Positions 8,062 to 45,602 of a stretch of DNA of 64,000 bases are shown here, piece by piece. The stretch is from NCBI GenBank assembly GCA_964350985.1, contig CAYGLK010000002.1, positions 64,382-128,381 of the forward strand, given 5' to 3'. A model generated the notes under the pieces. That model saw only the letters and a program-made list of their open reading frames with translations, did not search any database and was not told where the DNA came from. This DNA is from an uncultured Candidatus Saccharibacteria bacterium (GTDB lineage: Bacteria; Patescibacteriota; Minisyncoccia; Phycocordibacterales; UBA918). The first letter of the stretch is position 1. Every line of letters begins with the position of its first letter. The translations under genes were made by a program, and so were the position numbers.

Positions 8062-8147
8062 TGGAGAAGTGTCAGAGTGGTCTATCGTGCTTCCTTGCTA
8101 AGGAAGTGGGGTTCACGCCCCCGGAGGTTCGAATCCTCTCTTCTCCG
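8062..8147 (+). tRNA. tRNA-Ser, anticodon GCU (type II tRNA with long variable arm). Non-canonical 18-nt anticodon arm; no encoded CCA
   Basis: Acceptor GGAGAAG/CTTCTCC, T-arm GGAGG-TTCGAAT-CCTCT, variable arm GGGG-TTCACG-CCCC. Anticodon arm cttcc-ttgctaaa-ggaag has one extra nucleotide (8-nt loop, or 6-bp stem plus 6-nt loop). Confidence 0.75.
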
Positions 8148-8157
8148 CTTTTTGAAA

Positions 8158-8184: not shown

Positions 8185-8445
8185 AAGCGGAGAAGAAGAA
8201 AAGTGCTAAGGCACTTTTCGTGAGGATTCGAAGACCTTGCCTACTATTTTGTGACGCAAGGAAACAAAATAGTGACAAGGTGTACTGCCTATGTAATGGG
8301 AGAAATTCCTCTCTTCTCGTAACAGTCTGGGAGACTGTTACGTAGGATTCGAAAAGCTTTTGAGGTAGATTCGACCAGAGGGAGAATATATCCAAAAGGT
8401 ATACTGGTTGTGTAACAACCGAAATTCCTCTCTTCTCCGCGAATA
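8185..8445. repeat. tRNA-linked repeat array A: inverted copy of the tRNA-Ser 3' tail, then two degenerate tRNA-3'-half-like units
   Basis: aagcggagaagaag at 8185-8198 is the reverse complement of ctcttctccgctt (8137-8150). Two units each contain a hairpin, a T-loop-like GGATTCGAA and an acceptor-like end gaaattcctctcttctc(cg). Confidence 0.5.
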
Positions 8446-16309: not shown

Positions 16310-16482
16310 AAAAAATACTTTAGCTGCTTTATTAATGGTTTGATTATATCATTTCTATAAATATTTGACTCAAATCTCTTAAAAAGTAGGGATGCCAAAC
16401 CTAAAACCAGGGCTTGGAATAAATGTCTTTTCCCTCTATAATAGGCGCTAACCACAAAAGTGGTGACAATTTGAACGAAGTG

Positions 16483-16634
16483 AATATATTGGAGGATTGG
16501 CTATGAAATCTAATTTGTTTTAGATTTCATCCGATCGTTCCCCAGAACGAATAATCGATGCTTTAGCGAGATTATAGGGAGGGTAACGAAGCCAATCCTA
16601 TCTAAGATCAGAGTGAATATATTGGAGGATTGGC
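16483..16634. repeat. 23-nt direct duplication (gtgaatatattggaggattggct) of the tRNA 5' end plus leader, with an inverted 10-nt copy (agccaatcct) in between
   Basis: Copies at 16483-16505 and 16612-16634; the inverted fragment sits around 16580. Confidence 0.55.
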
Positions 16635-16710
16635 TGAGTGGTTGAAAGCAGCAGTTTACTAAACTGCCGAACCTTAACAGGTTCCGAGAGTTCGAATCTC
16701 TCATCCTCCG
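16624..16710 (+). tRNA. Type II tRNA (Ser-class architecture) with apparent anticodon ACU (loop TTACTAA); unusual A34; no encoded CCA
   Basis: Acceptor GGAGGAT/ATCCTCC, D-loop AGTGGTTGAA, anticodon stem GCAGT/ACTGC, variable arm GAACCT-TAAC-AGGTTC, T-arm GAGAG-TTCGAAT-CTCTC. Confidence 0.65.
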
Positions 16711-16717
16711 CGAGTAC

Positions 16718-16748: not shown

Positions 16749-16750
16749 TT

Positions 16751-17150
16751 CGCGGAGGATGAAGAAAGCAAATAGTTTTGCTTTCTGTAGAGATTCGAAA
16801 GCCGCAGGCATGTCTGCAAGACAGCCGAGGCGGGGTCGAGAGTCCTTACTAGAATTAGAGCAAAGCGAATAATTATAGTTAGTAACTCGTGACCGAATTT
16901 CTATCTCTATACAACCCATTTAGGGTTGTTTTTATTTGTGCGAGCGAGAGGATGAGTAAGACGCCTGCGCGTCTTACGTAGAGATTCGAAAAGCGCAGCG
17001 ATGCCGGAGGCGAGCGAGTTGGGGTCGAGAACATTTAGTAGATTTGGAGTCGTAGACGAACAAATATACTTAATGATTCGTGACCGAATCTCCAACTCCA
17101 TACAACCCATTTAGGGTTGTTTTTATTTGTGCGAGCGGAGGATGAGAAAT
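16751..17150. repeat. tRNA-linked repeat array B: inverted copy of the tRNA 3' tail, then two tandem units of about 195 bp, each ending in the terminator-like module atacaacccatttagggttgtttttatttgtgcgagcg
   Basis: cgcggaggatga is the reverse complement of tcatcctccgcg (16701-16712). Units span about 16751-16946 and 16947-17137. Each has a hairpin, T-loop-like gtagagattcgaaagc, a GC-rich core and ccgaat + acceptor-like tail. Confidence 0.6.
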
Positions 17151-26199: not shown

Positions 26200-28314
26200 G
26201 TGTTCCTTCACTTTTTTGAGAAGTACCATAAGTATCGTATAGTACCAATCATGAGAAAACATCGATTGTTTTACTATTTAGCTTTGGCGTTTGGATTGCT
26301 TATATTAGCTTTGTTGTATGCAAACAGCTTAAACAAGACATACCAGTCTCTAGCATCAAAATCAATTACTGACCGTCATGGAGTCCCGATTCTTTTGGAA
26401 AGAAATATCCATAAAAATTACGCACTCTACTCTGACAATTTCCCAAATAGATTAAAAGAACTGGTAGTTAAAAAAGAAGATCAGTATTTTTGGTATCACC
26501 CAGGAATCAATCCGGTAAGTATTTTAAGGGCGCTCTTTTCCAGTGTGAAAGACGGCACGGTAGACGGATCAAGTACTATTTCACAACAAGTTGCAAAAAT
26601 TCTACTCTTAAATACTAACGACCGTAACATACTAAACAAGCTACATGAATCCCTAGTGGCTTTGCTACTAAATTTGAGATACTCAAAAGATACCCTGCTT
26701 ACAATGTATTTAAACCTGGCATATCTTGGGAATGAAGCCCAAGGATTTGCCACTGCTAGCTATGTCTACTACGGAATAAATATTACTGAACTTTCAGATC
26801 CACAACTTGTATCATTATTGGCTACCTTAAGTAGTCCAACAGCTTCTCATCCTTGGACCGAAGCAAATAATGAACGAACGACTTATTGGTTAGAAAGACT
26901 AGATGTTTCTGGTGATGTTCCAAAAACAGAAAAACAAGAATTTTACTTTAATAAACCTTCGGTCTTTGAGTTAACTTCTCTTTTACCAACACCTTGCAAT
27001 AATCCTTGTCAGACCACCGTCGACGCATCTCTAACTGAGTCTATTCGTAGTCTTGTAAGTGAACACACCGACCAAACAAGATCTAAAGGAGGAACCAGTG
27101 CGGCGGTTGTTATTATTGACGCCAAGACTGGCCAACTACTATCTATCGTTGGCTCACCTGACCCTACTGGTAATTTTGAGGGAGCTCAAATAAATATGGC
27201 TATCTCTCCTCGTCCTACAGGATCAACAATTAAACCTTTTATCTATGCACTCGCCTTTGAATCAGGAGCTAGACCATATTCTTTAATTAACGATCGAGAA
27301 TATAAGTACCCTATCGGAACTGGCTATCCTCTCTATCCAAAAAACTTTGACGGAAAATACTCTGGTGAAGTTACGTTACATGAAGCACTGGCCAATAGTC
27401 TAAACACTCCGAGTGTTAGATTACTTGAATTTACAACTCTTGATTCTTTTTATAGTGTACTAGAAGATAAACTTGGTCTAACGCCAATAAATCCACTCTC
27501 ATCTTATGCATACGGTATTGCTTTAGGGGGGTTGGAAATAGACTTACTCACTCTAACTCATTTTTTTACCGTTTTTACTAACCATGGTGATCTTTTACCA
27601 TTATCCATACAACCTAAAAAAATAATTCCTGCTCCTTTGGCAAAAGAAATAAGTGACGAAAATGTGTTTACACCAGCTAGTATTGAACTTGTCACAAGTA
27701 TTTTGACTGACAGACAGGCTGGTGTCGAACAGTTTGGCATTAAAAGTACCTTAGACGTTTTTAATAAAACCGTCGCCGTTAAAACTGGTACCTCTCGAGA
27801 TTTTCACGATAGTTGGACTATTGGGTACACCCCTGATTATATCGTTGGAGTTTGGCTGGGTAATCCAGAAAACAAACCTCTGGACAAGATTTCTGGTGCT
27901 GCTGGAGCAGGTGCACTATGGCGTAAAGTAATAGAACGTTTGAACACAACTAAATACAACACTAATACACAATTTATTTATGAAGAGACTGAGTTAATTA
28001 ATATTGAAGGTAATTCTTATAGATCGATACCAGACGAAATTCCCCAGGAACATCGTTCTCTATTGCTAGATAAACAAATTATTCTATTACCTCACCATGG
28101 AGATAGTTTTTTATTTAGAGAAGGTGATGTAATTACATTTACTAGCGATCAAATCTCTACCTGGAAAGTGGACGGATATATTGTAGGTCAAGGTAAGACG
28201 GCCAACTGGCAACCAGCAATGCCGGGAGTATATGGAGTCAGTGCTACTACAGAGGATAATAAAGAGGAGGAGATCACTATTGAAGTAGTCGCTGATGCTA
28301 CTTTACTACCGTAA
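26200..28314 (+). CDS. Class A penicillin-binding protein (glycosyltransferase GT51 plus transpeptidase); start may be 26251
   Basis: GT51 motif GSSTISQQVAKIL; transpeptidase STIKPF (SxxK), SLN, KTGTS. The 3' end overlaps the convergent alpha-2-macroglobulin gene by 17 bp. Confidence 0.8.
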   Translation: MFLHFFEKYHKYRIVPIMRKHRLFYYLALAFGLLILALLYANSLNKTYQSLASKSITDRHGVPILLERNIHKNYALYSDNFPNRLKELVVKKEDQYFWYHPGINPVSILRALFSSVKDGTVDGSSTISQQVAKILLLNTNDRNILNKLHESLVALLLNLRYSKDTLLTMYLNLAYLGNEAQGFATASYVYYGINITELSDPQLVSLLATLSSPTASHPWTEANNERTTYWLERLDVSGDVPKTEKQEFYFNKPSVFELTSLLPTPCNNPCQTTVDASLTESIRSLVSEHTDQTRSKGGTSAAVVIIDAKTGQLLSIVGSPDPTGNFEGAQINMAISPRPTGSTIKPFIYALAFESGARPYSLINDREYKYPIGTGYPLYPKNFDGKYSGEVTLHEALANSLNTPSVRLLEFTTLDSFYSVLEDKLGLTPINPLSSYAYGIALGGLEIDLLTLTHFFTVFTNHGDLLPLSIQPKKIIPAPLAKEISDENVFTPASIELVTSILTDRQAGVEQFGIKSTLDVFNKTVAVKTGTSRDFHDSWTIGYTPDYIVGVWLGNPENKPLDKISGAAGAGALWRKVIERLNTTKYNTNTQFIYEETELINIEGNSYRSIPDEIPQEHRSLLLDKQIILLPHHGDSFLFREGDVITFTSDQISTWKVDGYIVGQGKTANWQPAMPGVYGVSATTEDNKEEEITIEVVADATLLP

Positions 28315-31300
28315 ACTCACCACTTGCAGTTCGACCGAAAAATTCTGGGTTATACAACTCTCCTACCCAAACCGGTAGGTGTTGATACTGTCCTGGAACC
28401 AAAGTGCGCAAGTAATACTCGTAGACATAAGTACCTGGATCTAAACTTTCCTGGAAGACAAAAATACGGTCATCATGTAACTCTTCAGTACCACCTCTAA
28501 AAGCTCGTGTATATTGTCGACGGTTTGGTTTCAAAGCTTCTTTCTCATCTTTATAAACATCAACAGTTTCTAATGCAGCAAATTCACCAGTTGACATAAA
28601 GGCAGCGACATCAAACTTATTTTCTGCCTGTACCTTCGCAGCTGACTTGATCGCAGCATCAAGCACGATTTTATTCTCAGTAGAATAATCGAAGTTAATA
28701 ATTTCAAAACCAGCTGGAATCTTATCTTCAATAGCCATCATACGCATCGGAGAACCAATAGAGAAAGTTATGCGGCCCAAAACAGTATCACCTACTGTTG
28801 CTTCTGTGAGTGGGTTTTGTTTATCTATGTCATCCAAGGCAAAGAATTCACGAGTAACCTGCACACCTTCATCTCGACCAGGTAATACTTCACGATCAAG
28901 ATAGTACTTCATCTCAATATCGTAATAAATTGTATTATTTTGTCGTGCATCCGCTTCTACTTGAGTAAATGTAAAGAGATGTTCTTCACCTAAACCTAAC
29001 TCATCAAAGGTCAAAAGTTTAGATAGTCCTTCAAGTTTTGGTTGTAGTTCAGTGTTATGAGTTGCGATTATTTCACCATCTAAAAGAGCAGTTATCACTG
29101 TGCGTGCTCCTGATTCACCTTTCCACTCAATATAATCTGTAAGTGTCTGCACTACAACATGAGTAGTATTAGTTGTACCCCAAGCACCATCAAACTGTCG
29201 CTCTGACAAAAGCCAATCTACAATCTTTGGCGCCAAATCTGTCTCACGTTCTTGAGTAGTAATTGCTCTTAGAAGAATCGCTGTGTTTGCCATGTCAGTT
29301 TCGTAAAAACTTTTAGCAAAACTTACTGAGCTACGACTAATATATATACCGTCATTATTTTCGCGCAAACGGCGTTCTATTTCATTCCAGACTGTATAAC
29401 GATCCCAGAACCATAGCTCGTCTGACAAAAGTGCAGCATAAACAAGTGAATGAGTACTGAAATTTCGGATCGCTTTACGTGTAATACTTTTTCGTAGTTC
29501 TGAAACTCCTACATCAACTGCCCGTGGTCGCGGATCAATCTCTTTTAAGGTTACTAACCGTGTAGTCAAATAATCCATCTTCCAAGAACTATCTACTATA
29601 CTGTCTTCATTAAACCTTCTACTCGCAACTGTACCGGCAAATTTCTTTGCTTGGTTTAAGACATCCTCGTCTATTTCAATGCCATATTTTTCGAGTGACA
29701 ATAAAACAGACAATACATGTAGCGACAATGACACATCAGAACGCAATCCTCGATAATATCCAAAACCACCATCTCTTGCTTGTGATTCATAAATTTGTTT
29801 AAGACCTTGCTGAAGTGCTTCGTTTACTGAATAGGTATTATTATTGAATTCAACTGTTTCTAGTCGATATTCAGACCCCAATCCTTCAAGAGAAGTTAAG
29901 TGACTGATTGTTGCTAAGGTAGCTAGTTTACTAGCTAGTTGCTCGCTACATCCATAAGGATATGCTGCCATATAATTTAGTGAGTCTTCAAGGTAGGCTC
30001 CGACTGTGCCAAAAGCCTTAACTGTGACACCACCTAATTCTTGATGAATTTCAGTCGGGGTAAAAATCTTTTCTTCAATCAACTCACCGCTGGTTTGAGC
30101 TCCACGGAAGACTGTTTCATACAAAGTGTTTTCCACCACCGGAATCTGCTTACGGACAGAGTCTTCAAACAAACTGTTGCCGGCCACAAATAATACTTCA
30201 TGAGATCCGCCTAATATACTTCTTGGTGCTTCAACATCAAAGAACAAACGTTTAGATCCTTCAGCTGGAATAGTTACAGTTTGTGGCTTTCCTACCAGAA
30301 CCAATGAATCACTCTCTATGGTAAAGGTAATAGTTTGCGAGACTTTAGTACGATTAAGAACTTCCGCTCCAAGCGATAATTTATCACCTGGAACTAAGAA
30401 TCGAGGATAAAGCGGCGTCATTATTAAATCTTTTTTCTCTTCAAATTCCATATAATTGACACCTACTTTAGTATCCTTTGTGATACCAATAGTTTCTACT
30501 TGCCACCGTGTTAGGTTATCTGGCAATGTAAACTTAACAGTTGCTCGTCCGTTTGAGTCAGTTACAACATCGGCTGCCCAGAAAGCTGTATCTTTGAAGA
30601 CACCACGTTCACGCTTTGCCAAATCAACTCCTCCATCTCCTCCTTTAGTACCTGTTGGAATTTCAATTTCTTCATGGACAAATTTTAAATTAGAACTTGT
30701 TATCACATCGTGACTGAATCGGTTGTAGAAAAAAGCCAGTGGATCTCTTTTTGGATTACCTTTAAGAGCTAAGACACTCAAGTCGACTGCTGCAATAGAT
30801 ACTTCTGCCGGAACTGGAAGACCATCGTTATTTTTTGTTTCCACCTGCAAAGTAACCTCTTCCCCAGGCAGGTATGCTTTTTTGTTACTGATTACATTTA
30901 TATCGAGGTTGTATACATCATGGTCAATTTGATAATATACTTCTCCATACTTAACAGATGGCTCAGAAGAAATCAGGGTCACTGTCACAACCACGTTTGG
31001 AGAGTGATCCTTTTTAGCCACAAAGTCATAGTCGAAGAAATTTGCATCCACATCAATGACTTCATACTCCATCACACTTCCTCGCTCAACAGTAACTAGT
31101 GCCTTTGCTTTTTGGTACGGAGACTTAATAATTAACTTACTAGTTTGACCAACAGCTAAGTCAACTTCATCTACAGCGATGTCTAATGTTCTATCGTTAT
31201 TTCTTCTAACTGGCACTGCACCTTTACCGTAAACATACTGAGACGCGCTTGCTAAATACGGATTACCACGCTCATCTACACCAGATAACCGCAAAATATA

Positions 31301-34300
31301 TCTCCCAGCTTTATCAAAGGTAAATGGCAGCTCTAACAGACCATTTTGATTGGTTGTCACCTCTGCGTCAAAAACAGGTACTTCAATCTCTTCTGAGTGC
31401 ACATAGAAACTACCGTCAACTTCACGTCGTTCAAACTGTTTCCAATCTTCCCGTACAATCTCCATATTTACTTTTCCTGGACGACCGACTCCTTCAGTAT
31501 CAACAGTTCGAATTTCAATTATGTTGCTCTCACCAACAGCGCTAAAGTGATCTAATGTTCGTACCGCGCCGTAAAGCATAGCTCGGTGAACAATGAAAGA
31601 AGCCTGGGTAGAAACACTCCGACCACTCGCATCTTTAACAGTGGCGTTGATAACGAAAATTTTACTTGTATTAGAATTTTCCTCGTCTTCAAATAATTTA
31701 TTAAAATCAAGTTCAGTTAAAATGTTAGCCACTCCATTTTCTAGAGGTACTTCCCCTCTAGCAACAAACTGATCGTAATACCCACACTGGCTACAGTATT
31801 CATCAAAAGAACCATATCGAAAACGCCTATCATTTCCTTTATCAAAATAGTAATTTTGTGTTGTGATAGCGTAGGAAACAGTACCTTCAGCTACCGGAGC
31901 ACCAAAGAAATAATCTGCTGATACAATAACATCAAGTGTTTCTCCGGCGACATATTCATCGCGTTGCGATGTTGCCTTCACTTCAAACGGAGATGGGGTA
32001 TATTCTTCAACTGAAAAATAAGAGTACCCCACGTTGTAACCGGACCAAGTCTGAGCATGAATACTGTAACTACCTAAGGGTGCATTTTCTGGTAAAACTA
32101 ACTCTGCTGCAACAGTTCCGTATTCAGACAAACTGGTTGAAGTTGAAAAGATTTGACCACCTGGCCCACTAACCGTAACCGTAACTATCCGGTCAGCAAA
32201 GATTTCGTACTTGGCGTCATATCCAATTCGGTGCAATCCTTTAATGAAAACTTCATGTCCAGGCCGATAGATTGGCCGGTCAGTATAAAGATACATTTGT
32301 TCAATTTCATGCACTGCCCCAGAAGAACTGATTGTGTCAGCCCAACTACTAACCATAGCTGAGTCATCACCACTTATTACATAAGCTCCAACAGCATCAG
32401 CAACTGTTTTAACCAAACCTACTCCATCTTCATTTGTTACCACTGTTGCAGCTCGCTCAATAAGCACTTTATTTCCTGGTGCTGTATCACGATAAACTGA
32501 AATCTGAGCTCCTTCGACAGGATCTAAAGTTGAAAGATTACTTACCCAATATAGACCTGAGCCAGCACCGTCTCTAACAATACCGGTTTTACGATCAGTA
32601 ACTTCTTCACTATTAAGATCAAATTGATTAGTTCTTTTTTCTACCAAAGACAAATTAGTCACACTTGTATACATGTGATCAAAATACTGTCGTTCAGTAT
32701 TTTTCTTAAACTGATAATCAGAATATTTCAGCTCTGGATGAGTCACTGTGATAACGTAGTGCCCTTTCACATTATTAAAGTATTGTTGCAAATCAAGTTG
32801 CACATAACTAGTCCCAGATGGGTTTGAGAGATCTATACGTCGATCTTGTCTTTCAAGACAATTGCTCGGCGCCTCTTGTCCACGACCCAACTCACCACCA
32901 ATGCGAAGCATTTCTTCTGGAGATAATTTACAAATAGTTAAATCAATATAATCAATGTTTCCAAAACTATAGGTAAAAGCGGTACGGTCTGGAGTTGTCA
33001 CCTCGTAACGTTGATGTAGATTTTTCATCCAAGCAACCTTTTTTATTTCAGTTACCACTGGCTTTACTCTTTCTGGAGTACGGAAAGATGTTTCAGTGCT
33101 TAACTGATTTCCAAAAACATCTTCCGGGGTTAGCTTAATTACATAATCCGTTTCCGGCAACAAGCTAAACTGAACCGTTGTCTTAAAAGAACCGGCACAG
33201 AGTGGTTGTGATTGAAGCGGTAAAAGTGTTTCGTAAGGGGTTACAAAAGATGAAATTTCAGATCTACTAAAAGAGTATATTGGTTGTTCGGTTTGAAATA
33301 GATCTTTGTAATTTAAAGAACGATATTCAATAATTGGATTTGACGAGCAAACTGTAAGACTTCTATCTTCACTACCTGCAGTTGGTATAACTTCTGTAAT
33401 TACTAATGGTCCAACTGTTTTAAACTTAACCTCTTCCTTAACATCAGCGATTCGAACACCATCGAGATCAAAGAAATCACTGATTGTAAGCGTGTAGTCT
33501 TTAGCAAGCTCTAACTGTTCACCCACAAAAGAAACTTCAACGACCGAATCATTGTACCTATTACAAACTGGATCATAGGCTTCGCATAGACTTTGATACT
33601 TTACTGTTGCTACAGATCGACCAACGCCACTTATAGTTAACTTATCTTTATCAACCGGTTGTGAGAAGTACAAACGTATGACACCTTGAGGATCAAAGTA
33701 ATCACTTCTTACTTCACGACTCCGTTGCGAATATACATCGCTTCTCATCAAAAGATTCGCCACTGTACTTGTTGCTCTGATATCTGGGGATGTCAAAGTC
33801 CCTTCTGTCGGACGAATATTTGTGACTGTGTAGCTTATTGATTCACCAAAAAACCATCGGGCTTCATTTTCTACTGGTCTAACTATAACGGTACTACGAT
33901 CTATTACGTTCTCTTTTTGTTTTAGGTCAGGGTTATAGGTTAAGCTGCTGTCATACTCCAAGGTAACTGGTATAGAATTATTATCCTTATTCACCACTGC
34001 AATCTCCATATCTTCTATTGATACAGGCTGATTAAATGAAAAACGAAGTGGATCTTGAGCCCGTAAGTTACCACGAGAGTACTCAGTCGTTCTCAATCTA
34101 TTCACGGTAAAATTATATTCTTCTTTAGGTACTTGTAGACCATCAACTGAATAAAATCCTTCTCCAACTGTTACTGTATAATCTGACGACCTAGTTAATC
34201 TTTTGGCAGGAATAAATTCTAGCTGTCTTTCACTAGCCCACACAAAAGAACCTTCTGTAGGTGGTGTAATAGTGATCGGGACATCTATTTCATAGTCTCG

Positions 34301-35386
34301 ATCTAGAGCCTGTAGCGGTACCATTGGCCTATTAAAGGTAAAGGTCAAAATAGTTTCCTCGCTGACATTTCCAACATTTAGATTTGGTTCAAACAAATCA
34401 ATCTTGGGACGCTGCACAGCCCGGAAGCGCTTTTCACTAATTGAACCGTCAGAATTTTCGTAAGATAAAGTATAAAAATTATTCTCTTCTAGCGGTTCAC
34501 TTAATTTAAAAACAATATAATCAGGTGATGTTGTCCTTCCCCACCAAGTACTAATACTTGGATCAAAATCAACATTAAATCGAGACAAGAATTTGCCTTC
34601 ACCTTCAGGTAAACGAACAACAATTGGACCATCAAGAGGAACTGTATCGCGGATTAATTGATAATCGTTACGTAACTCGTCAGGAGTTAGTGTGACTGGC
34701 CGAGTGATAATCCAAGTAAAGTAAGCTAGTGCGCCAAGTAGTAGTATGAATAACGCTATATAATGATTTTGTCTAAACTTTTTACTTAGACTGAAATTCC
34801 TCCACCACCATCTGATAGGTAGCAGGAGAAAATGCAGTACAATCTTTCCCTTCGCAAACAGAACATTAAGAAAGACTAAGTTTATCTTTGGAACTGAGAC
34901 CTCTTCGGTAGATCCTTTTGTTAGTTCATTAAACTGGATATTACGACTATATAAACCGTGTACTATTAAATAATAGATTCCTATACTCAAGAAAAATGGT
35001 AATAAGTAGAGTACGTACGAGAAGATAAGGGTTAAGGAAAAGCCTTTCGCTATACTTTTAGAAACAACATCATAGATAAACAATAAACTTCCAGCCAAGG
35101 CCAGAAGACAAACAAGCGCCTGAGCGATATAGAGACCTAGTCGAATACGACGATATTTACCTATTTTTACTGATCCTTTAATGACAAACAATTGATATAA
35201 CGGAGTCAATGAATATTTACTAGACAGAATAATAATAGCAATCCAATAGATGGCTGGTATAAGGGAGCTACCAGTGTAGCTAAAAACTCTTTCAATGGTT
35301 AATGAACTATTAACCAAGGTCATCAACACCAAAGCTGAACCGACAAGTACTGCCGGATGAGACCAAGTAAAGAGGAGGCGAAACAT
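28298..35386 (-). CDS. Giant (2362 aa) membrane-anchored alpha-2-macroglobulin-family protein (bacterial A2M/YfhM-like)
   Basis: N-terminal TM segments; thioester-type motif YPYGCSEQ; size and beta-rich repeat organisation consistent with the A2M family. Confidence 0.7.
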   Translation of the reverse strand: MFRLLFTWSHPAVLVGSALVLMTLVNSSLTIERVFSYTGSSLIPAIYWIAIIILSSKYSLTPLYQLFVIKGSVKIGKYRRIRLGLYIAQALVCLLALAGSLLFIYDVVSKSIAKGFSLTLIFSYVLYLLPFFLSIGIYYLIVHGLYSRNIQFNELTKGSTEEVSVPKINLVFLNVLFAKGKIVLHFLLLPIRWWWRNFSLSKKFRQNHYIALFILLLGALAYFTWIITRPVTLTPDELRNDYQLIRDTVPLDGPIVVRLPEGEGKFLSRFNVDFDPSISTWWGRTTSPDYIVFKLSEPLEENNFYTLSYENSDGSISEKRFRAVQRPKIDLFEPNLNVGNVSEETILTFTFNRPMVPLQALDRDYEIDVPITITPPTEGSFVWASERQLEFIPAKRLTRSSDYTVTVGEGFYSVDGLQVPKEEYNFTVNRLRTTEYSRGNLRAQDPLRFSFNQPVSIEDMEIAVVNKDNNSIPVTLEYDSSLTYNPDLKQKENVIDRSTVIVRPVENEARWFFGESISYTVTNIRPTEGTLTSPDIRATSTVANLLMRSDVYSQRSREVRSDYFDPQGVIRLYFSQPVDKDKLTISGVGRSVATVKYQSLCEAYDPVCNRYNDSVVEVSFVGEQLELAKDYTLTISDFFDLDGVRIADVKEEVKFKTVGPLVITEVIPTAGSEDRSLTVCSSNPIIEYRSLNYKDLFQTEQPIYSFSRSEISSFVTPYETLLPLQSQPLCAGSFKTTVQFSLLPETDYVIKLTPEDVFGNQLSTETSFRTPERVKPVVTEIKKVAWMKNLHQRYEVTTPDRTAFTYSFGNIDYIDLTICKLSPEEMLRIGGELGRGQEAPSNCLERQDRRIDLSNPSGTSYVQLDLQQYFNNVKGHYVITVTHPELKYSDYQFKKNTERQYFDHMYTSVTNLSLVEKRTNQFDLNSEEVTDRKTGIVRDGAGSGLYWVSNLSTLDPVEGAQISVYRDTAPGNKVLIERAATVVTNEDGVGLVKTVADAVGAYVISGDDSAMVSSWADTISSSGAVHEIEQMYLYTDRPIYRPGHEVFIKGLHRIGYDAKYEIFADRIVTVTVSGPGGQIFSTSTSLSEYGTVAAELVLPENAPLGSYSIHAQTWSGYNVGYSYFSVEEYTPSPFEVKATSQRDEYVAGETLDVIVSADYFFGAPVAEGTVSYAITTQNYYFDKGNDRRFRYGSFDEYCSQCGYYDQFVARGEVPLENGVANILTELDFNKLFEDEENSNTSKIFVINATVKDASGRSVSTQASFIVHRAMLYGAVRTLDHFSAVGESNIIEIRTVDTEGVGRPGKVNMEIVREDWKQFERREVDGSFYVHSEEIEVPVFDAEVTTNQNGLLELPFTFDKAGRYILRLSGVDERGNPYLASASQYVYGKGAVPVRRNNDRTLDIAVDEVDLAVGQTSKLIIKSPYQKAKALVTVERGSVMEYEVIDVDANFFDYDFVAKKDHSPNVVVTVTLISSEPSVKYGEVYYQIDHDVYNLDINVISNKKAYLPGEEVTLQVETKNNDGLPVPAEVSIAAVDLSVLALKGNPKRDPLAFFYNRFSHDVITSSNLKFVHEEIEIPTGTKGGDGGVDLAKRERGVFKDTAFWAADVVTDSNGRATVKFTLPDNLTRWQVETIGITKDTKVGVNYMEFEEKKDLIMTPLYPRFLVPGDKLSLGAEVLNRTKVSQTITFTIESDSLVLVGKPQTVTIPAEGSKRLFFDVEAPRSILGGSHEVLFVAGNSLFEDSVRKQIPVVENTLYETVFRGAQTSGELIEEKIFTPTEIHQELGGVTVKAFGTVGAYLEDSLNYMAAYPYGCSEQLASKLATLATISHLTSLEGLGSEYRLETVEFNNNTYSVNEALQQGLKQIYESQARDGGFGYYRGLRSDVSLSLHVLSVLLSLEKYGIEIDEDVLNQAKKFAGTVASRRFNEDSIVDSSWKMDYLTTRLVTLKEIDPRPRAVDVGVSELRKSITRKAIRNFSTHSLVYAALLSDELWFWDRYTVWNEIERRLRENNDGIYISRSSVSFAKSFYETDMANTAILLRAITTQERETDLAPKIVDWLLSERQFDGAWGTTNTTHVVVQTLTDYIEWKGESGARTVITALLDGEIIATHNTELQPKLEGLSKLLTFDELGLGEEHLFTFTQVEADARQNNTIYYDIEMKYYLDREVLPGRDEGVQVTREFFALDDIDKQNPLTEATVGDTVLGRITFSIGSPMRMMAIEDKIPAGFEIINFDYSTENKIVLDAAIKSAAKVQAENKFDVAAFMSTGEFAALETVDVYKDEKEALKPNRRQYTRAFRGGTEELHDDRIFVFQESLDPGTYVYEYYLRTLVPGQYQHLPVWVGELYNPEFFGRTASGEFTVVK

Positions 35387-36723: not shown

Positions 36724-36861
36724 ATGAAAAATCCGTGTCTGAGCCTGAATCTCGGACACAAGCATTTACCGCGCAGGCCAGGGGATAGTCGTGAGACTTC
36801 CCCCTGGCCATTTGTATTTAATAACCAGCTTTATTGTCCCCTTTCTCCAAATACGGTATAG
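36724..36861 (+). CDS. 45-aa small ORF (MKNPCLSLNLGHKHLPRRPGDSRETSPWPFVFNNQLYCPLSPNTV), speculative
   Basis: AAGGAT 7 nt upstream; contains a GC hairpin ggccagggg..ccccctggcc; stop lies 16 nt before the tRNA. Confidence 0.2.
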   Translation: MKNPCLSLNLGHKHLPRRPGDSRETSPWPFVFNNQLYCPLSPNTV

Positions 36862-36876
36862 TTTCCAAGCCGACAT

Positions 36877-36949
36877 CCGCCTGTAGCTCAGTTGGTAGAG
36901 CGCAGAGCTTATACCTCTGTGGTCCTTGGTTCGAGTCCAAGCGGGCGGA
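36877..36949 (+). tRNA. tRNA with anticodon UAU (loop CTTATAC), putatively tRNA-Ile(UAU); no encoded CCA
   Basis: Acceptor CCGCCTG/CGGGCGG (one G-U), TAGCTCAGTTGGTAGAGC D-arm, anticodon stem CAGAG/CTCTG, T-arm CTTGG-TTCGAGT-CCAAG, discriminator A. Confidence 0.7.
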
Positions 36950-36955
36950 CTGGCG

Positions 36956-37021
36956 TAAAATAAAACTGACAATTGTTAACAATTGTCAGTTTTATTTTAG
37001 TTAGCAAACTTTTTTGCTAAC
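36956..37021 (+). terminator. Double terminator: 44-nt perfect palindrome taaaataaaactgacaattgttaacaattgtcagttttatttta, then hairpin gttagcaaa-ctttt-ttgctaac
   Basis: Perfect palindromes read directly. Confidence 0.6.
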
Positions 37022-37165
37022 GGCGCCAGTCCGAGCCGCAGCGCTGCGAACTAGTGAGCCGCGAGGCGGGATCGCGAACACTTAGTATATTTGGAGTGGT
37101 CGAACAAATATACTTAGTGATTCGTGATGACTGAATGTTTTAAATTTATATTCCTACTGGTCCTT
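37022..37165. repeat. tRNA-linked repeat C: inverted copy of the tRNA 3' trailer (cgccagtccg), then one unit homologous to array B; contains a perfect 15-bp AT-rich hairpin
   Basis: Hairpin is cacttagtatatttg / caaatatacttagtg. About 70 nt align with 17040-17110 of array B. Followed by the terminator aaaaagaacaacg-tcta-acgttgttcttttt (37170-37200). Confidence 0.55.
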
Positions 37166-37251
37166 GGCTAAAAAGAACAACGTCTAACGTTGTTCTTTTT
37201 ATTTTGGAAAAACTCAAATCCCCTTATCTCCTTAAGCTATAATAAATAAAC

Positions 37252-45071: not shown

Positions 45072-45464
45072 GGGGATGCTAGGCATCGACGGTTAGCCTA
45101 CCCATTATGTGCAGTGTCGAAATTGGAATCAATTCGTTAAAAGGTTCCATCTGTATTTGCAAACAAGCCAATACCAAGTCCTTACGCTAACGCGTTTGGA
45201 TTCGCTCCCGCTCTAGCGTAACCATTCGCCTAGACCCGGATCGATGCGATCGTACTAAACGCCTCATACAGTACGATTCGTAGAATAGCCACGAGGCTGT
45301 GGACTTAAGTGTCGTTGTCGCTTAAGTTCAAGATTGTCACAACTCGAGTAATTGTTGTTTTGTCTCTTCTATAGACAGTTACTTTAAATCAAAGGAGAAA
45401 CTACACACTGTAGATTCATGATGAGTACCTGATTCGGACGGGGTTTCGATTACCCCCATCTCCA
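45072..45464 (+). ncRNA. ssrA: tmRNA (ssrA), one-piece; tag ORF 45159-45221 encodes ANKPIPSPYANAFGFAPALA
   Basis: 5' end GGGGATGCTAGGCATCGACGG (tmRNA-like start); 3' tRNA-like domain GGGGT-TTCGATT-ACCCC plus acceptor CATCTCC pairing with GGGGATG. GCA resume codon in ...tttGCAAAC..., tag ends ALA-TAA. Adjacent to smpB. Confidence 0.7.
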
Positions 45465-45469
45465 CTCGC

Positions 45470-45500
45470 TGAAAATATCCCTATTTTATAGGGATATTTT
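45470..45500 (+). terminator. Terminator after tmRNA (aaaatatccctat-ttt-atagggatatttt)
   Basis: Perfect 13-bp stem plus T-run. Confidence 0.6.
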
Positions 45501-45534
45501 CTATTTATATATAATGATAAATTGAACCAAAACA

Positions 45535-45563
45535 TTGACATTTTGTGTATTTAGTTTATTATT
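45535..45563 (+). promoter_or_regulatory. Sigma70-like promoter TTGACA-17 nt-ATTATT upstream of the GC-rich ORF
   Basis: TTGACA at 45535-45540; AT-rich -10 region; RBS GGAGGTGA 4 nt before the ATG at 45603. Confidence 0.35.
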
Positions 45564-45602
45564 TTTATAAATAAATTGTCCTTTTCACTCGGAGGTGATG
45601 CT

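What the first reader, a model, noticed from the sequence alone, without database searches (positions are those of the whole stretch)
37022..37200. Locus C: a unit homologous to locus B after the UAU tRNA, carrying a perfect 15-bp AT-rich hairpin
Seen in sequence:
- After a 44-nt perfect palindromic terminator, the inverted tRNA trailer cgccagtccg appears.
- It is followed by about 70 nt aligning with 17040-17110 (gaacacttagtatatttggagtggtcgaacaaatatacttagtgattcgtga versus gaacatttagtagatttggagtcgtagacgaacaaatatacttaatgattcgtga).
- The stem cacttagtatatttg / caaatatacttagtg is perfect here and compensated or degenerate at locus B. That points to a conserved RNA or DNA structure rather than chance.

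A conserved module shared between different tRNA loci suggests a dispersed element (MITE-like or small RNA) targeting tRNA downstream regions.
Basis: seen in the sequence. Interest (0 to 1): 0.6.

Follow-up and report, generated by a model that had tools for sequence, protein, structure and literature searches.

The report
tRNA-tail structured element of Patescibacteria
The flagged segment is one copy of a folded, non-coding DNA/RNA element, apparently undescribed, that sits just behind tRNA and tmRNA genes across the candidate-phyla-radiation bacteria and carries a stretch antisense to the end of its own neighbouring tRNA gene, so it looks like a guide-bearing element aimed at tRNA gene ends.

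Summary
The "perfect 15-bp" stem is 14/15: it has a T·T mismatch that the whole family shares.

Locus C (about 36951-37137) is one complete unit. It has four parts:
- a 44-nt terminator palindrome;
- hairpin H0;
- a 10-nt segment antisense to the tRNA-Ile end;
- a roughly 95-nt core of helix P2 and a 60-nt hairpin P3.

The same core occurs twice behind tRNA-Ser(ACU) (locus B). One pattern scan of species-representative genomes gave about 77 Patescibacteria loci. A covariance model finds 106 copies in 552 kb of these loci, and covariation support is strong.

About 70% of copies lie 60-200 nt behind a tRNA or tmRNA gene on the same strand, covering about 30 isoacceptors. In 49 of 50 units, the roughly 14 nt just before the core match the neighbour tRNA's 3' end (as reverse complement) better than they match the sequence after the core. 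A direct copy of that tRNA end after the core decays.

Three related genomes lack the unit at the same tRNA-Ile locus. I found no Rfam, phage, plasmid or literature match, and no linked protein gene.

Best reading (about 0.45): a non-autonomous integrative element with a guide-like segment. The mechanism is inferred, not shown.

The parts
36877..36950 (+). tRNA-Ile(UAU) gene, the neighbour and target of the unit. Its promoter-like site TTGTCC-17-TATAGT lies at 36834-36862.
   Evidence: ARAGORN; Rfam RF00005 at 69 bits; promoter scan.
36946..36955 (+). X1: cggactggcg, the last 4 nt of the tRNA plus 6 nt of trailer. This is the sequence to which the unit's antisense segment is complementary.
   Evidence: exact 10-nt inverted copy reported.
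36956..36999 (+). T: a perfect 44-nt palindrome, a terminator-type hairpin with an A-run and a T-run. It is absent from the orthologous loci, so it belongs to the inserted unit.
   Evidence: I8; absent in L001, L002 and L004; similar palindromes in at least 38 of 56 units against 3 of 280 shuffles.
37000..37021 (+). H0: hairpin gttagcaaacttttttgctaac. It is a family-wide hairpin with a conserved base (AG-nAAG...CTTn-CGT) and a covarying stem.
   Evidence: Fold; alignment (the H0 column block shows GCAAA/TTTGC, GTGCC/GGCAC and GCGCC/GCGCT variants).
37024..37033 (+). X': cgccagtccg, the guide-like segment antisense to X1. It also forms the short closing helix P1 (CAGTC/GACTG) with 37129-37133.
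   Evidence: score 10 against the tRNA end, 5 against the sequence after the core.
37035..37067 (+). P2: helix GCC/GGC, a conserved asymmetric internal loop (GCA opposite GA), then a variable hairpin.
   Evidence: helices 2 and 3: 97% and 94% paired, with compensatory changes.
37068..37127 (+). P3: the conserved 60-nt hairpin GGGATCGCGAAC...TTCGTGA. It has a G·U pair invariant in the 78 aligned copies, a U·U mismatch (37083/37115) and the apical motif GAG-N-CGAA.
   Evidence: Pattern hits; covariation (helix 4: 98% paired, 8 of 14 pairs with double changes); model score 105 bits.
37128..37137 (+). X2: tgactgaatg, a decayed direct copy of X1. GACTG is the 5-bp direct repeat flanking the insertion. 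The host sequence continues from here, as in the empty sites of L001 and L002.
   Evidence: Comparison.
37147..37167 (+). Relic copy of the tRNA-Ile 3' half (tatattcctactggtccttgg). It is older than the unit, is shared with relatives, and is not part of the unit.
37170..37203 (+). Second terminator-like hairpin (aaaaagaacaacg tcta acgttgttcttttt) ahead of the HlyD-family gene. It is host sequence.
   Evidence: Fold; L001 has an equivalent terminator.
16750..16907 (+). Unit B1 behind tRNA-Ser(ACU). In order: X'a tcgcggaggatga, H0, X'b gagattcgaa, the core (P3 at 16832-16892), then decayed X2.
   Evidence: 119 bits.
16946..17099 (+). Unit B2. In order: X'a, H0, X'b gagattcgaa, the core (P3 at 17021-17083), then X2 ccgaatctccaactcc. 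It is orthologous to the single unit of L109.
   Evidence: 122 bits.
8187..8443 (+). Two 'type S' units behind tRNA-Ser(GCU). They use the same grammar (X'a, H0, X'b ... X2) but a different core, TGTACTG-N4-TGTAA-N4.
   Evidence: 17 copies in the fetched loci.

Best explanation
What it is (shown). Locus C is one complete unit, about 185 nt, of a non-coding, strand-specific, folded element family. The family occurs across Patescibacteria, directly 3' of tRNA and tmRNA genes and on the same strand.

A unit has these parts, in order:
- a long terminator-type palindrome (T);
- usually a hairpin H0;
- a 10-25 nt segment X' that is antisense to the last nucleotides of the neighbouring tRNA gene. This covers either T-loop to 3' end, or acceptor end plus trailer as in locus C;
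- a conserved three-way-junction core (P2 and P3);
- a direct copy X2 of the tRNA end, which decays with time.

How it most likely works (inferred). It is a non-autonomous integrative element.
- It enters at the 3' end of tRNA/tmRNA genes and duplicates the target, giving X1...X2.
- Its internal antisense segment, next to the conserved scaffold, specifies or stabilises the choice of target. This resembles the exon-binding sites of group II introns or the guide nucleotides of IS200/IS605.
- The scaffold (H0, P2, P3, with conserved non-canonical pairs) is the handle for a trans-acting factor encoded elsewhere in the genome.
- The folded strand is the tRNA-sense strand. It could act as read-through RNA from the tRNA promoter or as single-stranded DNA.
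For: Family and structure:
- One scan of species-representative genomes gave at least 119 stretches, about 77 of them Patescibacteria with near-identical P3.
- The model finds 106 copies in 552 kb.
- 95.6% of cells are paired against 79.7% in shuffles. 304 double-change cells are seen against 96 in shuffles and 16-41 in slid controls (0 of 500 shuffles reach the observed value).
- A G·U pair invariant in all 78 aligned copies, and 105-122 bits on the forward strand against 12 on the reverse, show strand specificity.

Location:
- About 56 of 80 regex-detected copies have a tRNA or tmRNA gene on the same strand ending within about 200 nt upstream of P3, covering about 30 isoacceptors. The other copies are further units of tandem arrays or lie near the edge of a fetched piece.

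Match to the neighbouring tRNA:
- Inverted copy, score 23.4 against 13.5 permuted. Direct copy, 21.8 against 11.1. Neither was reached in 200 permutations.
- The 14 nt before P2 fit the tRNA end better than the downstream copy in 49 of 50 units.
- At 38 positions where X2 differs from the tRNA, X' follows the tRNA 27 times and X2 never. That script kept only units whose X' lay within 2 mismatches of the tRNA complement.
- X' is flanked on both sides by conserved element parts. A recurring T subtype sits on its 5' side and the core on its 3' side (note).

Insertion:
- The unit is absent from the orthologous tRNA-Ile/HlyD loci L001, L002 and L004.
- The filled site shows a GACTG direct repeat.
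- L107 has one more unit than its close relative L109.

No ORF and no recurrent neighbouring protein.
Against: - No transposase, integrase or reverse transcriptase was found next to any of about 100 copies or in the part of the window I annotated. The mobilising factor is therefore hypothetical.
- Copies within one genome are no more alike than copies from different genomes (0.82 against 0.80). Copies at the same tRNA are no more alike than copies at different tRNAs (0.81 against 0.81). So there is no sign of recent bursts of the kind typical for MITEs.
- Target duplication length is not fixed: 5 nt in C, about 20-23 nt in T-loop-type units.
- How a guide would be reprogrammed for about 30 different tRNAs is unexplained.
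- The match of X' to the tRNA could be kept by palindrome correction (template switching) rather than by function.
- A terminator lies between the tRNA promoter and the unit, and no promoter of its own was seen. Expression as RNA is therefore unproven.
Confidence: 0.45

Rival explanations
1. A functional tRNA-linked RNA. The unit is read through from the tRNA promoter and acts in cis or in trans on its own tRNA precursor. X' pairs with the tRNA 3' region or trailer and so affects maturation, quality control or decay. Alternatively, the unit folds into a tRNA-shaped RNA (acceptor/T-arm-like helix with the core in the 'T-loop') that tRNA-processing enzymes release as a stable RNA. Two known cases work this way (from my own knowledge): mascRNA and the herpesvirus tRNA-miRNA precursors.
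For: - The multi-helix junction has conserved non-canonical features: a G·U pair invariant in the aligned copies, U·U, G·A, and a GA-type internal loop.
- The unit always lies on the tRNA-sense strand.
- X' stays complementary to the tRNA while X2 decays.
- T-loop-type units reproduce acceptor and T-stem helices, with H0 in place of the D and anticodon arms.
- Core divergence within a genome equals that between genomes, as expected for old, constrained sequences.
Against: - Units are individually dispensable. Many tRNAs in the same loci lack one, and the orthologous tRNA-Ile loci lack it.
- A strong terminator precedes each unit and no promoter was detected.
- The tRNA-like shape is missing in the acceptor-end/trailer class, which includes locus C.
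- Pairing of X' with the T-arm and acceptor would unfold the tRNA.
Confidence: 0.27
2. A DNA-level recombination site or scar. The X1...X2 direct repeats are att-type duplications left by site-specific integration into tRNA/tmRNA genes at the T-loop and 3'-end sublocations, which I recall from the integrase literature as classical integration points. The folded strand (X' paired with X) would act as a single-stranded-DNA hairpin site, like integron attC sites or the CTX phage attP.
For: - Direct repeats of the tRNA 3' segment flank the insert.
- The targets are tRNA and tmRNA genes.
- Gene-bearing segments are inserted at these sites. L123 has a 2.7-kb segment between two identical [X-T-unit-X] copies. 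L107 has a 1.2-kb beta-lactamase-family gene between tRNA-Ser(GCU) and its unit.
- The direct-inverted-direct topology recalls integrated CTX-type hairpin sites (from my own knowledge).
- G·T pairs and extrahelical or mismatched bases are also compatible with folded DNA.
Against: - No integrase lies in or near any copy.
- The inserts are only 0.15-0.3 kb.
- The deep sequence conservation of a multi-helix core is not a known property of att arms.
- Nothing shows that single-stranded intermediates exist.
Confidence: 0.18
3. A by-product with no unit-level function. In this reading, chance similarity in AT-rich spacers, or replication template-switching at terminator palindromes, creates inverted copies of tRNA ends.
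For: - Template switching can create and extend hairpins (PMC8794818, found). That could explain why X' stays complementary to X1.
Against: - This cannot explain a roughly 95-nt core conserved across classes of Patescibacteria with compensatory changes.
- The pattern has an expectation of 0.00 in shuffles.
- It cannot explain the fixed placement of X' within 1-3 nt of the core.
Confidence: 0.03

Closest known systems
MITEs and other small bacterial repeat elements (REP/BIME, Correia, RUP)
   Same: - Short, without an ORF, multi-copy and intergenic.
- Hairpin-forming.
- Flanked by a duplicated target.
- Present or absent between related genomes.
   Different: - The inverted repeats are not shared between copies. 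Each is copied from the neighbouring tRNA.
- Duplication length varies from 5 to about 23 nt.
- Copies within a genome are not near-identical.
- The core is a conserved multi-helix junction rather than a simple palindrome.
- No parent IS was found.
Integrative elements that target tRNA/tmRNA genes (tyrosine-integrase islands)
   Same: - The targets are tRNA and tmRNA 3' parts.
- Duplications start in the T-loop or at the 3' end.
- The tRNA stays intact.
- Gene segments are occasionally found at the same sites (L107, L123).
   Different: - No integrase.
- The size is 0.15-0.3 kb.
- There is an internal inverted copy of the target.
- The element has an RNA-like conserved structure.
Group II introns, especially class C (exon-binding sites; insertion after terminators)
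   Same: - A conserved folded scaffold carries an internal segment complementary to the sequence just upstream of the element.
- The element is closely associated with an intrinsic-terminator hairpin.
   Different: - No domain V or any group II signature (no Rfam hit).
- The element is 5-10 times smaller.
- It has no ORF.
- The terminator is part of the element.
- The target is duplicated.
Guide-bearing mobile-element RNAs/DNAs (IS200/IS605 guide nucleotides, IS110 bridge RNA, TnpB/IscB omega RNA)
   Same: A constant scaffold is combined with a variable segment that matches the flanking target.
   Different: - No associated recombinase or nuclease gene.
- The guide is 10-25 nt, antisense to the upstream flank and internal to the element.
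- The targets are restricted to tRNA/tmRNA ends.
tRNA-shaped or tRNA-flanked non-coding RNAs (mascRNA, gammaherpesvirus tRNA-miRNA units, YrlA)
   Same: - Physically linked to a tRNA or tRNA-like fold.
- T-loop-type units mimic the acceptor/T-arm stack.
   Different: - Here the mimicry copies the specific neighbouring tRNA.
- It is absent in one class of units, which includes locus C.
- No processing data exist.
Folded single-strand recombination sites (integron attC, CTX phage attP)
   Same: - Strand-specific hairpins with conserved mismatches.
- A direct-inverted-direct arrangement after integration.
- Arrays of units.
   Different: - No integron integrase or cassette ORFs in most units.
- The sequence, not only the structure, is deeply conserved.

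Membership tests
MITE | Terminal inverted repeats shared by all copies and related to a parent IS. | tested here: not met
   The arms flanking the core are the reverse complement and the direct copy of each neighbour tRNA's own 3' end. They differ from copy to copy. No transposase was found nearby.
MITE | Target-site duplication of fixed length. | tested here: not met
   The duplication is 5 bp (GACTG) at locus C, from the empty-site comparison. It is about 20-23 nt (T-loop to 3' end) in T-loop-type units.
MITE | Short, non-coding, multi-copy. | tested here: met
   The model finds 106 copies in 78 loci. Units are 150-200 nt and have no conserved ORF.
MITE | Near-identical copies within one genome (recent amplification). 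| tested here: not met
   P3 identity is 0.82 within genomes and 0.80 between genomes.
Any curated RNA family (Rfam 15) | A match to a covariance model at or near its gathering score. | tested here: not met
   In the window, only tRNA and tmRNA reach threshold. Permissive scans of locus C and of a full unit (L034) give only chance miRNA or sRNA hits far below threshold.
tRNA or tRNA-like gene | A cloverleaf recognised by ARAGORN or RF00005. | tested here: not met
   No unit is called as a tRNA. T-loop-type units reproduce only acceptor and T-stem helices. Locus C has neither.
Integrase-borne island at a tRNA gene | A direct repeat of the tRNA 3' segment flanking the insert. | tested here: met
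   The direct copy after the core scores 21.8 against 11.1 when permuted, reached in 0 of 200 permutations.
Integrase-borne island at a tRNA gene | An integrase gene inside the insert. | tested here: not met
   Units carry no ORF. No recombinase domain was found in the L123 segment. No recurrent family was found near units.
Group II intron (class C) | Catalytic domain V and the six-domain fold. | tested here: not met
   No group II hit appears in the Rfam scans, and the unit is only about 185 nt.
Group II intron (class C) | An internal segment complementary to the upstream flank (EBS/IBS), with a terminator hairpin next to the insertion point. | tested here: inconclusive
   An analogous complementarity is present and terminators are present. 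However, the terminator lies inside the element, so this is a resemblance rather than a shared defining feature.
Primer-binding site for a mature tRNA (retroelement-type) | Complementarity to the tRNA 3' end including CCA. | tested here: not met
   In 31 of 51 units the inverted copy runs at least 3 nt into the genomic, non-CCA trailer. Examples are tcgc at locus B and ctggcg at locus C.
Intrinsic terminator only | A GC-rich hairpin followed by a T-run, with nothing else conserved. | tested here: not met
   The 44-nt palindrome fits this description. The conserved H0, X', P2 and P3 downstream of it do not.
Phage or plasmid element | Presence in viral or plasmid collections. | tested here: not met
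   IMG/VR gave one chance hit without the hairpin. There was no blastn match in phages or plasmids.

The most novel reading that the evidence does not exclude
The units are programmable guide modules: a constant scaffold (H0, P2, P3) joined to a 10-25 nt antisense segment. Through them, a still unidentified, widely conserved Patescibacteria factor would recognise the 3' ends of tRNA/tmRNA genes or of their precursors. This would be either a protein-in-trans, nucleic-acid-guided integration system, or a cis-encoded guide system for tRNA 3'-end processing or surveillance. Either way it would be a new class of guide-dependent machinery specific to the candidate phyla radiation.
Probability: 0.3. 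Interest if true: 0.9.

Novelty: new variant of a known kind. Interest (0 to 1): 0.77.

Why it matters
Patescibacteria make up a large share of bacterial diversity, have tiny genomes, and are thought to carry little repetitive or regulatory RNA. Here, a deeply conserved multi-helix element is found behind many of their tRNA and tmRNA genes, each copy tailored to its neighbour by an antisense segment.

If it is mobile, it is a new way for a protein-less element to address tRNA gene ends. It also marks sites where genes are inserted.

If it is an RNA acting on tRNA precursors, it would point to a lineage-specific layer of tRNA biology.

Either way, it gives a testable target for transcriptomics in cultivable Saccharibacteria, and a new RNA family for annotation.

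Tried and rejected
- **Known RNA family.** Rfam at gathering threshold on the window, and permissive scans on locus C and on a full unit of L034, gave nothing relevant.
- **Chance similarity.** Rejected by the pattern shuffles, the model scores and the covariation controls.
- **Primer-binding site for mature tRNA.** Rejected because the complementarity continues into a non-CCA trailer.
- **Linked protein gene (autonomous element).** All-against-all BLASTP of ORFs from 77 loci found no family recurrently adjacent to units. The L123 segment has no recombinase domain. Window ORFs near the loci are ordinary chromosomal genes.
- **Phage or plasmid origin.** No real matches.
- **Recent MITE burst, or simple vertical inheritance with each tRNA.** Neither fits the identity comparisons.
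- **Self-cleaving ribozyme, group I intron or group II intron.** No Rfam signal. By eye I saw no hammerhead-type core.
- **Selection on helix P1 (X' with the downstream copy X2).** Not supported, because X' tracks the tRNA rather than X2.
- **Literature.** Seven full-text searches found no description.
- **Method problems.**
  - My first automatic terminator detector under-counted. The revised one is still conservative.
  - The exact-protein look-up of the window's HlyD ORF failed, although an identical protein is in the collection (P0001).

Full report
**1. What is at the coordinates**

The window carries three tRNA genes and a tmRNA gene, all on the + strand:
- tRNA-Ser(GCU) at 8063-8148;
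- tRNA-Ser(ACU) at 16624-16711;
- tRNA-Ile(UAU) at 36877-36950;
- tmRNA at 45072-45465.

Behind tRNA-Ile the sequence reads as follows:
- tRNA end plus trailer cggactggcg, 36946-36955;
- a perfect 44-nt palindrome, 36956-36999;
- a 22-nt hairpin gttagcaaacttttttgctaac, 37000-37021;
- gg;
- cgccagtccg, 37024-37033, the exact reverse complement of 36946-36955;
- a helix with an internal loop (P2), 37035-37067;
- a 60-nt hairpin (P3), 37068-37127.

RNAfold leaves that position open.

The rest of the stated range is not part of the unit. It holds a relic of the tRNA-Ile 3' half (37147-37167) and a second terminator. Relatives have both of these too.

**2. Is the similarity to locus B more than chance?**

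Yes.
- The core of C aligns with two tandem units behind tRNA-Ser(ACU).
- A three-part pattern, GGGRTCGMGA...CGAAYAA...TCGTGA, hits exactly these three places. The expectation is 0.00 in 100 dinucleotide shuffles.
- A covariance model built later scores them 122, 119 and 105 bits. These three copies were in its training set. The best hit on the opposite strand is 12 bits, and nothing else in the 64 kb exceeds 10 bits.
- All three loci fold far better than shuffles: z = -6.3, -8.7 and -9.6.

**3. It is a large family restricted to Patescibacteria**

- About 77 are Patescibacteria: Paceibacteria, Kaiser-, Yonath-, Zambryski- and Nomurabacteria, and Saccharibacteria. Their P3 hairpins are almost identical.
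- The remainder are GC-rich chance hits inside genes of other phyla.
- The model finds 106 copies with E < 0.001 in 552 kb of these loci.
- Nothing real was found in IMG/VR, or in the phage or plasmid collections.
- No Rfam 15 family matches.
- Seven literature searches found no description.

**4. Structure**

An alignment of 78 copies gives a three-way junction:
- a short closing helix P1;
- P2, made of a 3-bp helix, a conserved asymmetric loop G(C/G)A opposite GA, a 2-bp helix, and then a hairpin of variable length and sequence;
- P3.

P3 occurs in two main sequence versions related by several compensatory double changes. Both keep three features: a G·U pair seen in all 78 sequences, a U·U and a G·A mismatch at fixed places, and an apical GAG-N-CGAA motif.

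Controls:
- 95.6% of cells are paired, against 79.7% in shuffles.
- 304 cells have a change on both sides, against 96 in shuffles and 16-41 with slid partners.
- No shuffle out of 500 reaches the observed value.

The invariant G·U and the strand asymmetry of the model scores show that one strand is the folded one, namely the tRNA-sense strand. This fits RNA, but also single-stranded DNA.

**5. Association with tRNA and tmRNA genes**

- About 56 of 80 regex-detected copies have a tRNA or tmRNA gene on the same strand ending within about 200 nt upstream of P3, typically 100-140 nt.
- About 30 different isoacceptors are represented.
- The other copies are further units of tandem arrays or lie near the edge of a fetched piece.
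- A long terminator-type palindrome lies between the gene and the unit. A strict script finds it in 38 of 56 cases, against 3 of 280 shuffles; by eye it is present in nearly all.

**6. Each unit is tailored to its own tRNA**

Between the tRNA and the core there is an inverted copy (X') of the tRNA's 3' end. After the core there is a direct copy (X2).
- Mean local scores are 23.4 and 21.8. When tRNAs are permuted among units they are 13.5 and 11.1, and no permutation out of 200 reaches the observed values.

Two arrangements exist:
- **T-loop type.** X' is the complement of positions 54 to 73 or beyond, interrupted by H0 at the acceptor/T-stem boundary. With X2 the unit takes a tRNA-like shape, with the core in place of the T-loop. 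Locus B and many others are of this type.
- **Acceptor-end type.** The order is tRNA end, palindrome, H0, X', core. X' is complementary to the last few tRNA nucleotides plus trailer. Locus C is of this type.

The complementarity that is kept is the one to the tRNA itself.
- The 14 nt before P2 match the tRNA end with a mean of 10.2 contiguous nt, against 6.2 for the sequence after the core. The tRNA match is better in 49 of 50 units.
- At 38 positions where X2 differs from the tRNA, X' follows the tRNA alone 27 times and X2 alone never. That script pre-selected units whose X' lay within 2 mismatches of the tRNA complement; the position-based test has no such filter.
- In 31 of 51 units the inverted copy runs into a non-CCA trailer. 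It is therefore not a primer-binding site for mature tRNA.
- X' is bounded on both sides by conserved element parts: a recurrent palindrome subtype or H0 on one side and the core on the other.
- I therefore read X' as an internal, variable, guide-like segment.

**7. Evidence for insertion and turnover**

- I fetched homologues of the adjacent HlyD-family gene with their contigs. Three related genomes keep the tRNA-Ile(UAU)/HlyD/FtsX/ABC/FtsH synteny but lack the unit.
- Aligning the spacers gives an empty site GGA|CTGAATGTTTT.
- The filled site is GGACTG-GCG[T][H0]GGCGC-CAGTCC-G[core]T-GACTG-AATGTTTT. This is a 5-bp direct repeat plus an internal inverted copy. The palindrome T arrived with the insert.
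- L107 and L109 are close relatives. L107 has one extra, tRNA-proximal unit. The orthologous units carry different P2 subtypes, which indicates exchange between units.
- Copies within one genome are no more alike than copies from different genomes (0.82 against 0.80). Copies at the same tRNA are no more alike than copies at different tRNAs (0.81 against 0.81). There is thus no recent burst and no simple co-inheritance with a tRNA.
- No protein family recurs next to the units.
- The parts of the window I annotated are ordinary chromosome: RecG, a PBP1-type enzyme, FtsH and an efflux operon.

**8. Interpretation**

Shown:
- a new, deeply conserved, strand-specific folded element tied to tRNA/tmRNA gene ends;
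- a neighbour-specific antisense segment and a decaying target duplication;
- presence/absence differences between relatives.

Inferred, and my preferred reading at about 0.45:
- It is a non-autonomous integrative element.
- Its antisense segment specifies or stabilises targeting of tRNA 3' ends.
- Its scaffold is recognised by a factor encoded elsewhere.

Rivals:
- A functional tRNA-linked RNA acting on its own precursor, or released as a tRNA-shaped RNA (about 0.27).
- A folded-DNA recombination site or integration scar (about 0.18). This is supported by gene segments inserted at these sites in L123 and L107.
- A mutational by-product (about 0.03).

Main weaknesses:
- there is no candidate enzyme;
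- duplication length is variable;
- a terminator stands between the promoter and the unit;
- template switching could keep X' complementary without selection (PMC8794818, found).

**9. Comparison with known systems and novelty**

The element fails the defining tests for:
- a MITE (shared terminal repeats, fixed duplication length, near-identical copies);
- an integrase island (no integrase);
- a group II intron;
- a tRNA;
- any Rfam family.

It resembles several of them in single respects: target duplication at tRNA ends, an internal segment complementary to the upstream flank, and tRNA mimicry.

I file it as a new variant among small tRNA-targeting, non-coding elements. About 0.3 probability remains that it represents a new guide-dependent system.

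Noticed in passing
window 16624-16711; also L107 and L109: A tRNA-Ser gene with anticodon ACU (A at position 34). It is conserved in three genomes and coexists with tRNA-Ser(GCU) at 8063-8148. An unmodified-looking A34 tRNA-Ser is unusual in bacteria.
   Followed up: partly
window 16479-16635: A 133-nt insertion lies between the promoter and tRNA-Ser(ACU).
- It is flanked by a perfect 24-nt direct repeat (16479-16502 and 16612-16635), which covers the -10 box plus tRNA nt 1-12.
- It contains an internal inverted copy, AGCCAATCC (about 16592-16600).
- It is absent in L107 and L109, and has no homologue in the fetched loci.
- It shows the same direct-inverted-direct topology as the 3' units, mirrored to the 5' side.
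   Followed up: partly
window 8187-8443 (locus A); 17 copies in the fetched loci: A second core family ('type S') uses the same grammar: inverted tRNA end, H0, then TTCGAA-AAG-[long hairpin, often with the same GAG-N-CGAA apex]-TGTACTG-N4-TGTAA-N4, then a direct tRNA end. Composite units that combine both cores also exist (L021, L033, L084).
   Followed up: partly
window 37147-37167; L001 3250-3500; L002 770-890: tRNA-Ile(UAU) loci carry partial duplications of the tRNA.
- The window has a relic of the 3' half.
- L001 has a 5'-half copy and a 3'-half copy starting in the anticodon loop.
- L002 has a 3'-half copy with an unrelated AT-rich insertion in its T-loop.
   Followed up: partly
L123 590-3860: A 2.7-kb segment lies between two identical copies of [tRNA-His end, terminator, unit, tRNA end]. 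It carries NlpC/P60, guanylate kinase and NUDIX genes and has no recombinase domain. It looks like a gene segment inserted at, or duplicated through, a unit.
   Followed up: partly
L107 3760-5250: A 1.2-kb beta-lactamase-family gene sits between tRNA-Ser(GCU) and the terminator plus type-S unit. In the window, that terminator and unit follow the tRNA directly.
   Followed up: partly
window 45072-45600: The tmRNA gene has only a plain terminator behind it and no unit. The tmRNA genes of L047 and L116 carry T-loop-type units tailored to the tmRNA 3' end.
   Followed up: yes
window 28298-35386 (- strand): A very large ORF of 2362 aa lies upstream of the tRNA-Ile locus. It was not analysed.
   Followed up: no
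L017, L021, L082, L107, L124: A recurrent terminator-palindrome subtype, AA(A)TCGGC...TTGCCGTT(T)G, is found behind different tRNAs in different genomes. It is followed by a continuous antisense segment, with no H0. This indicates that the palindrome is part of the element and that sub-families exist.
   Followed up: partly
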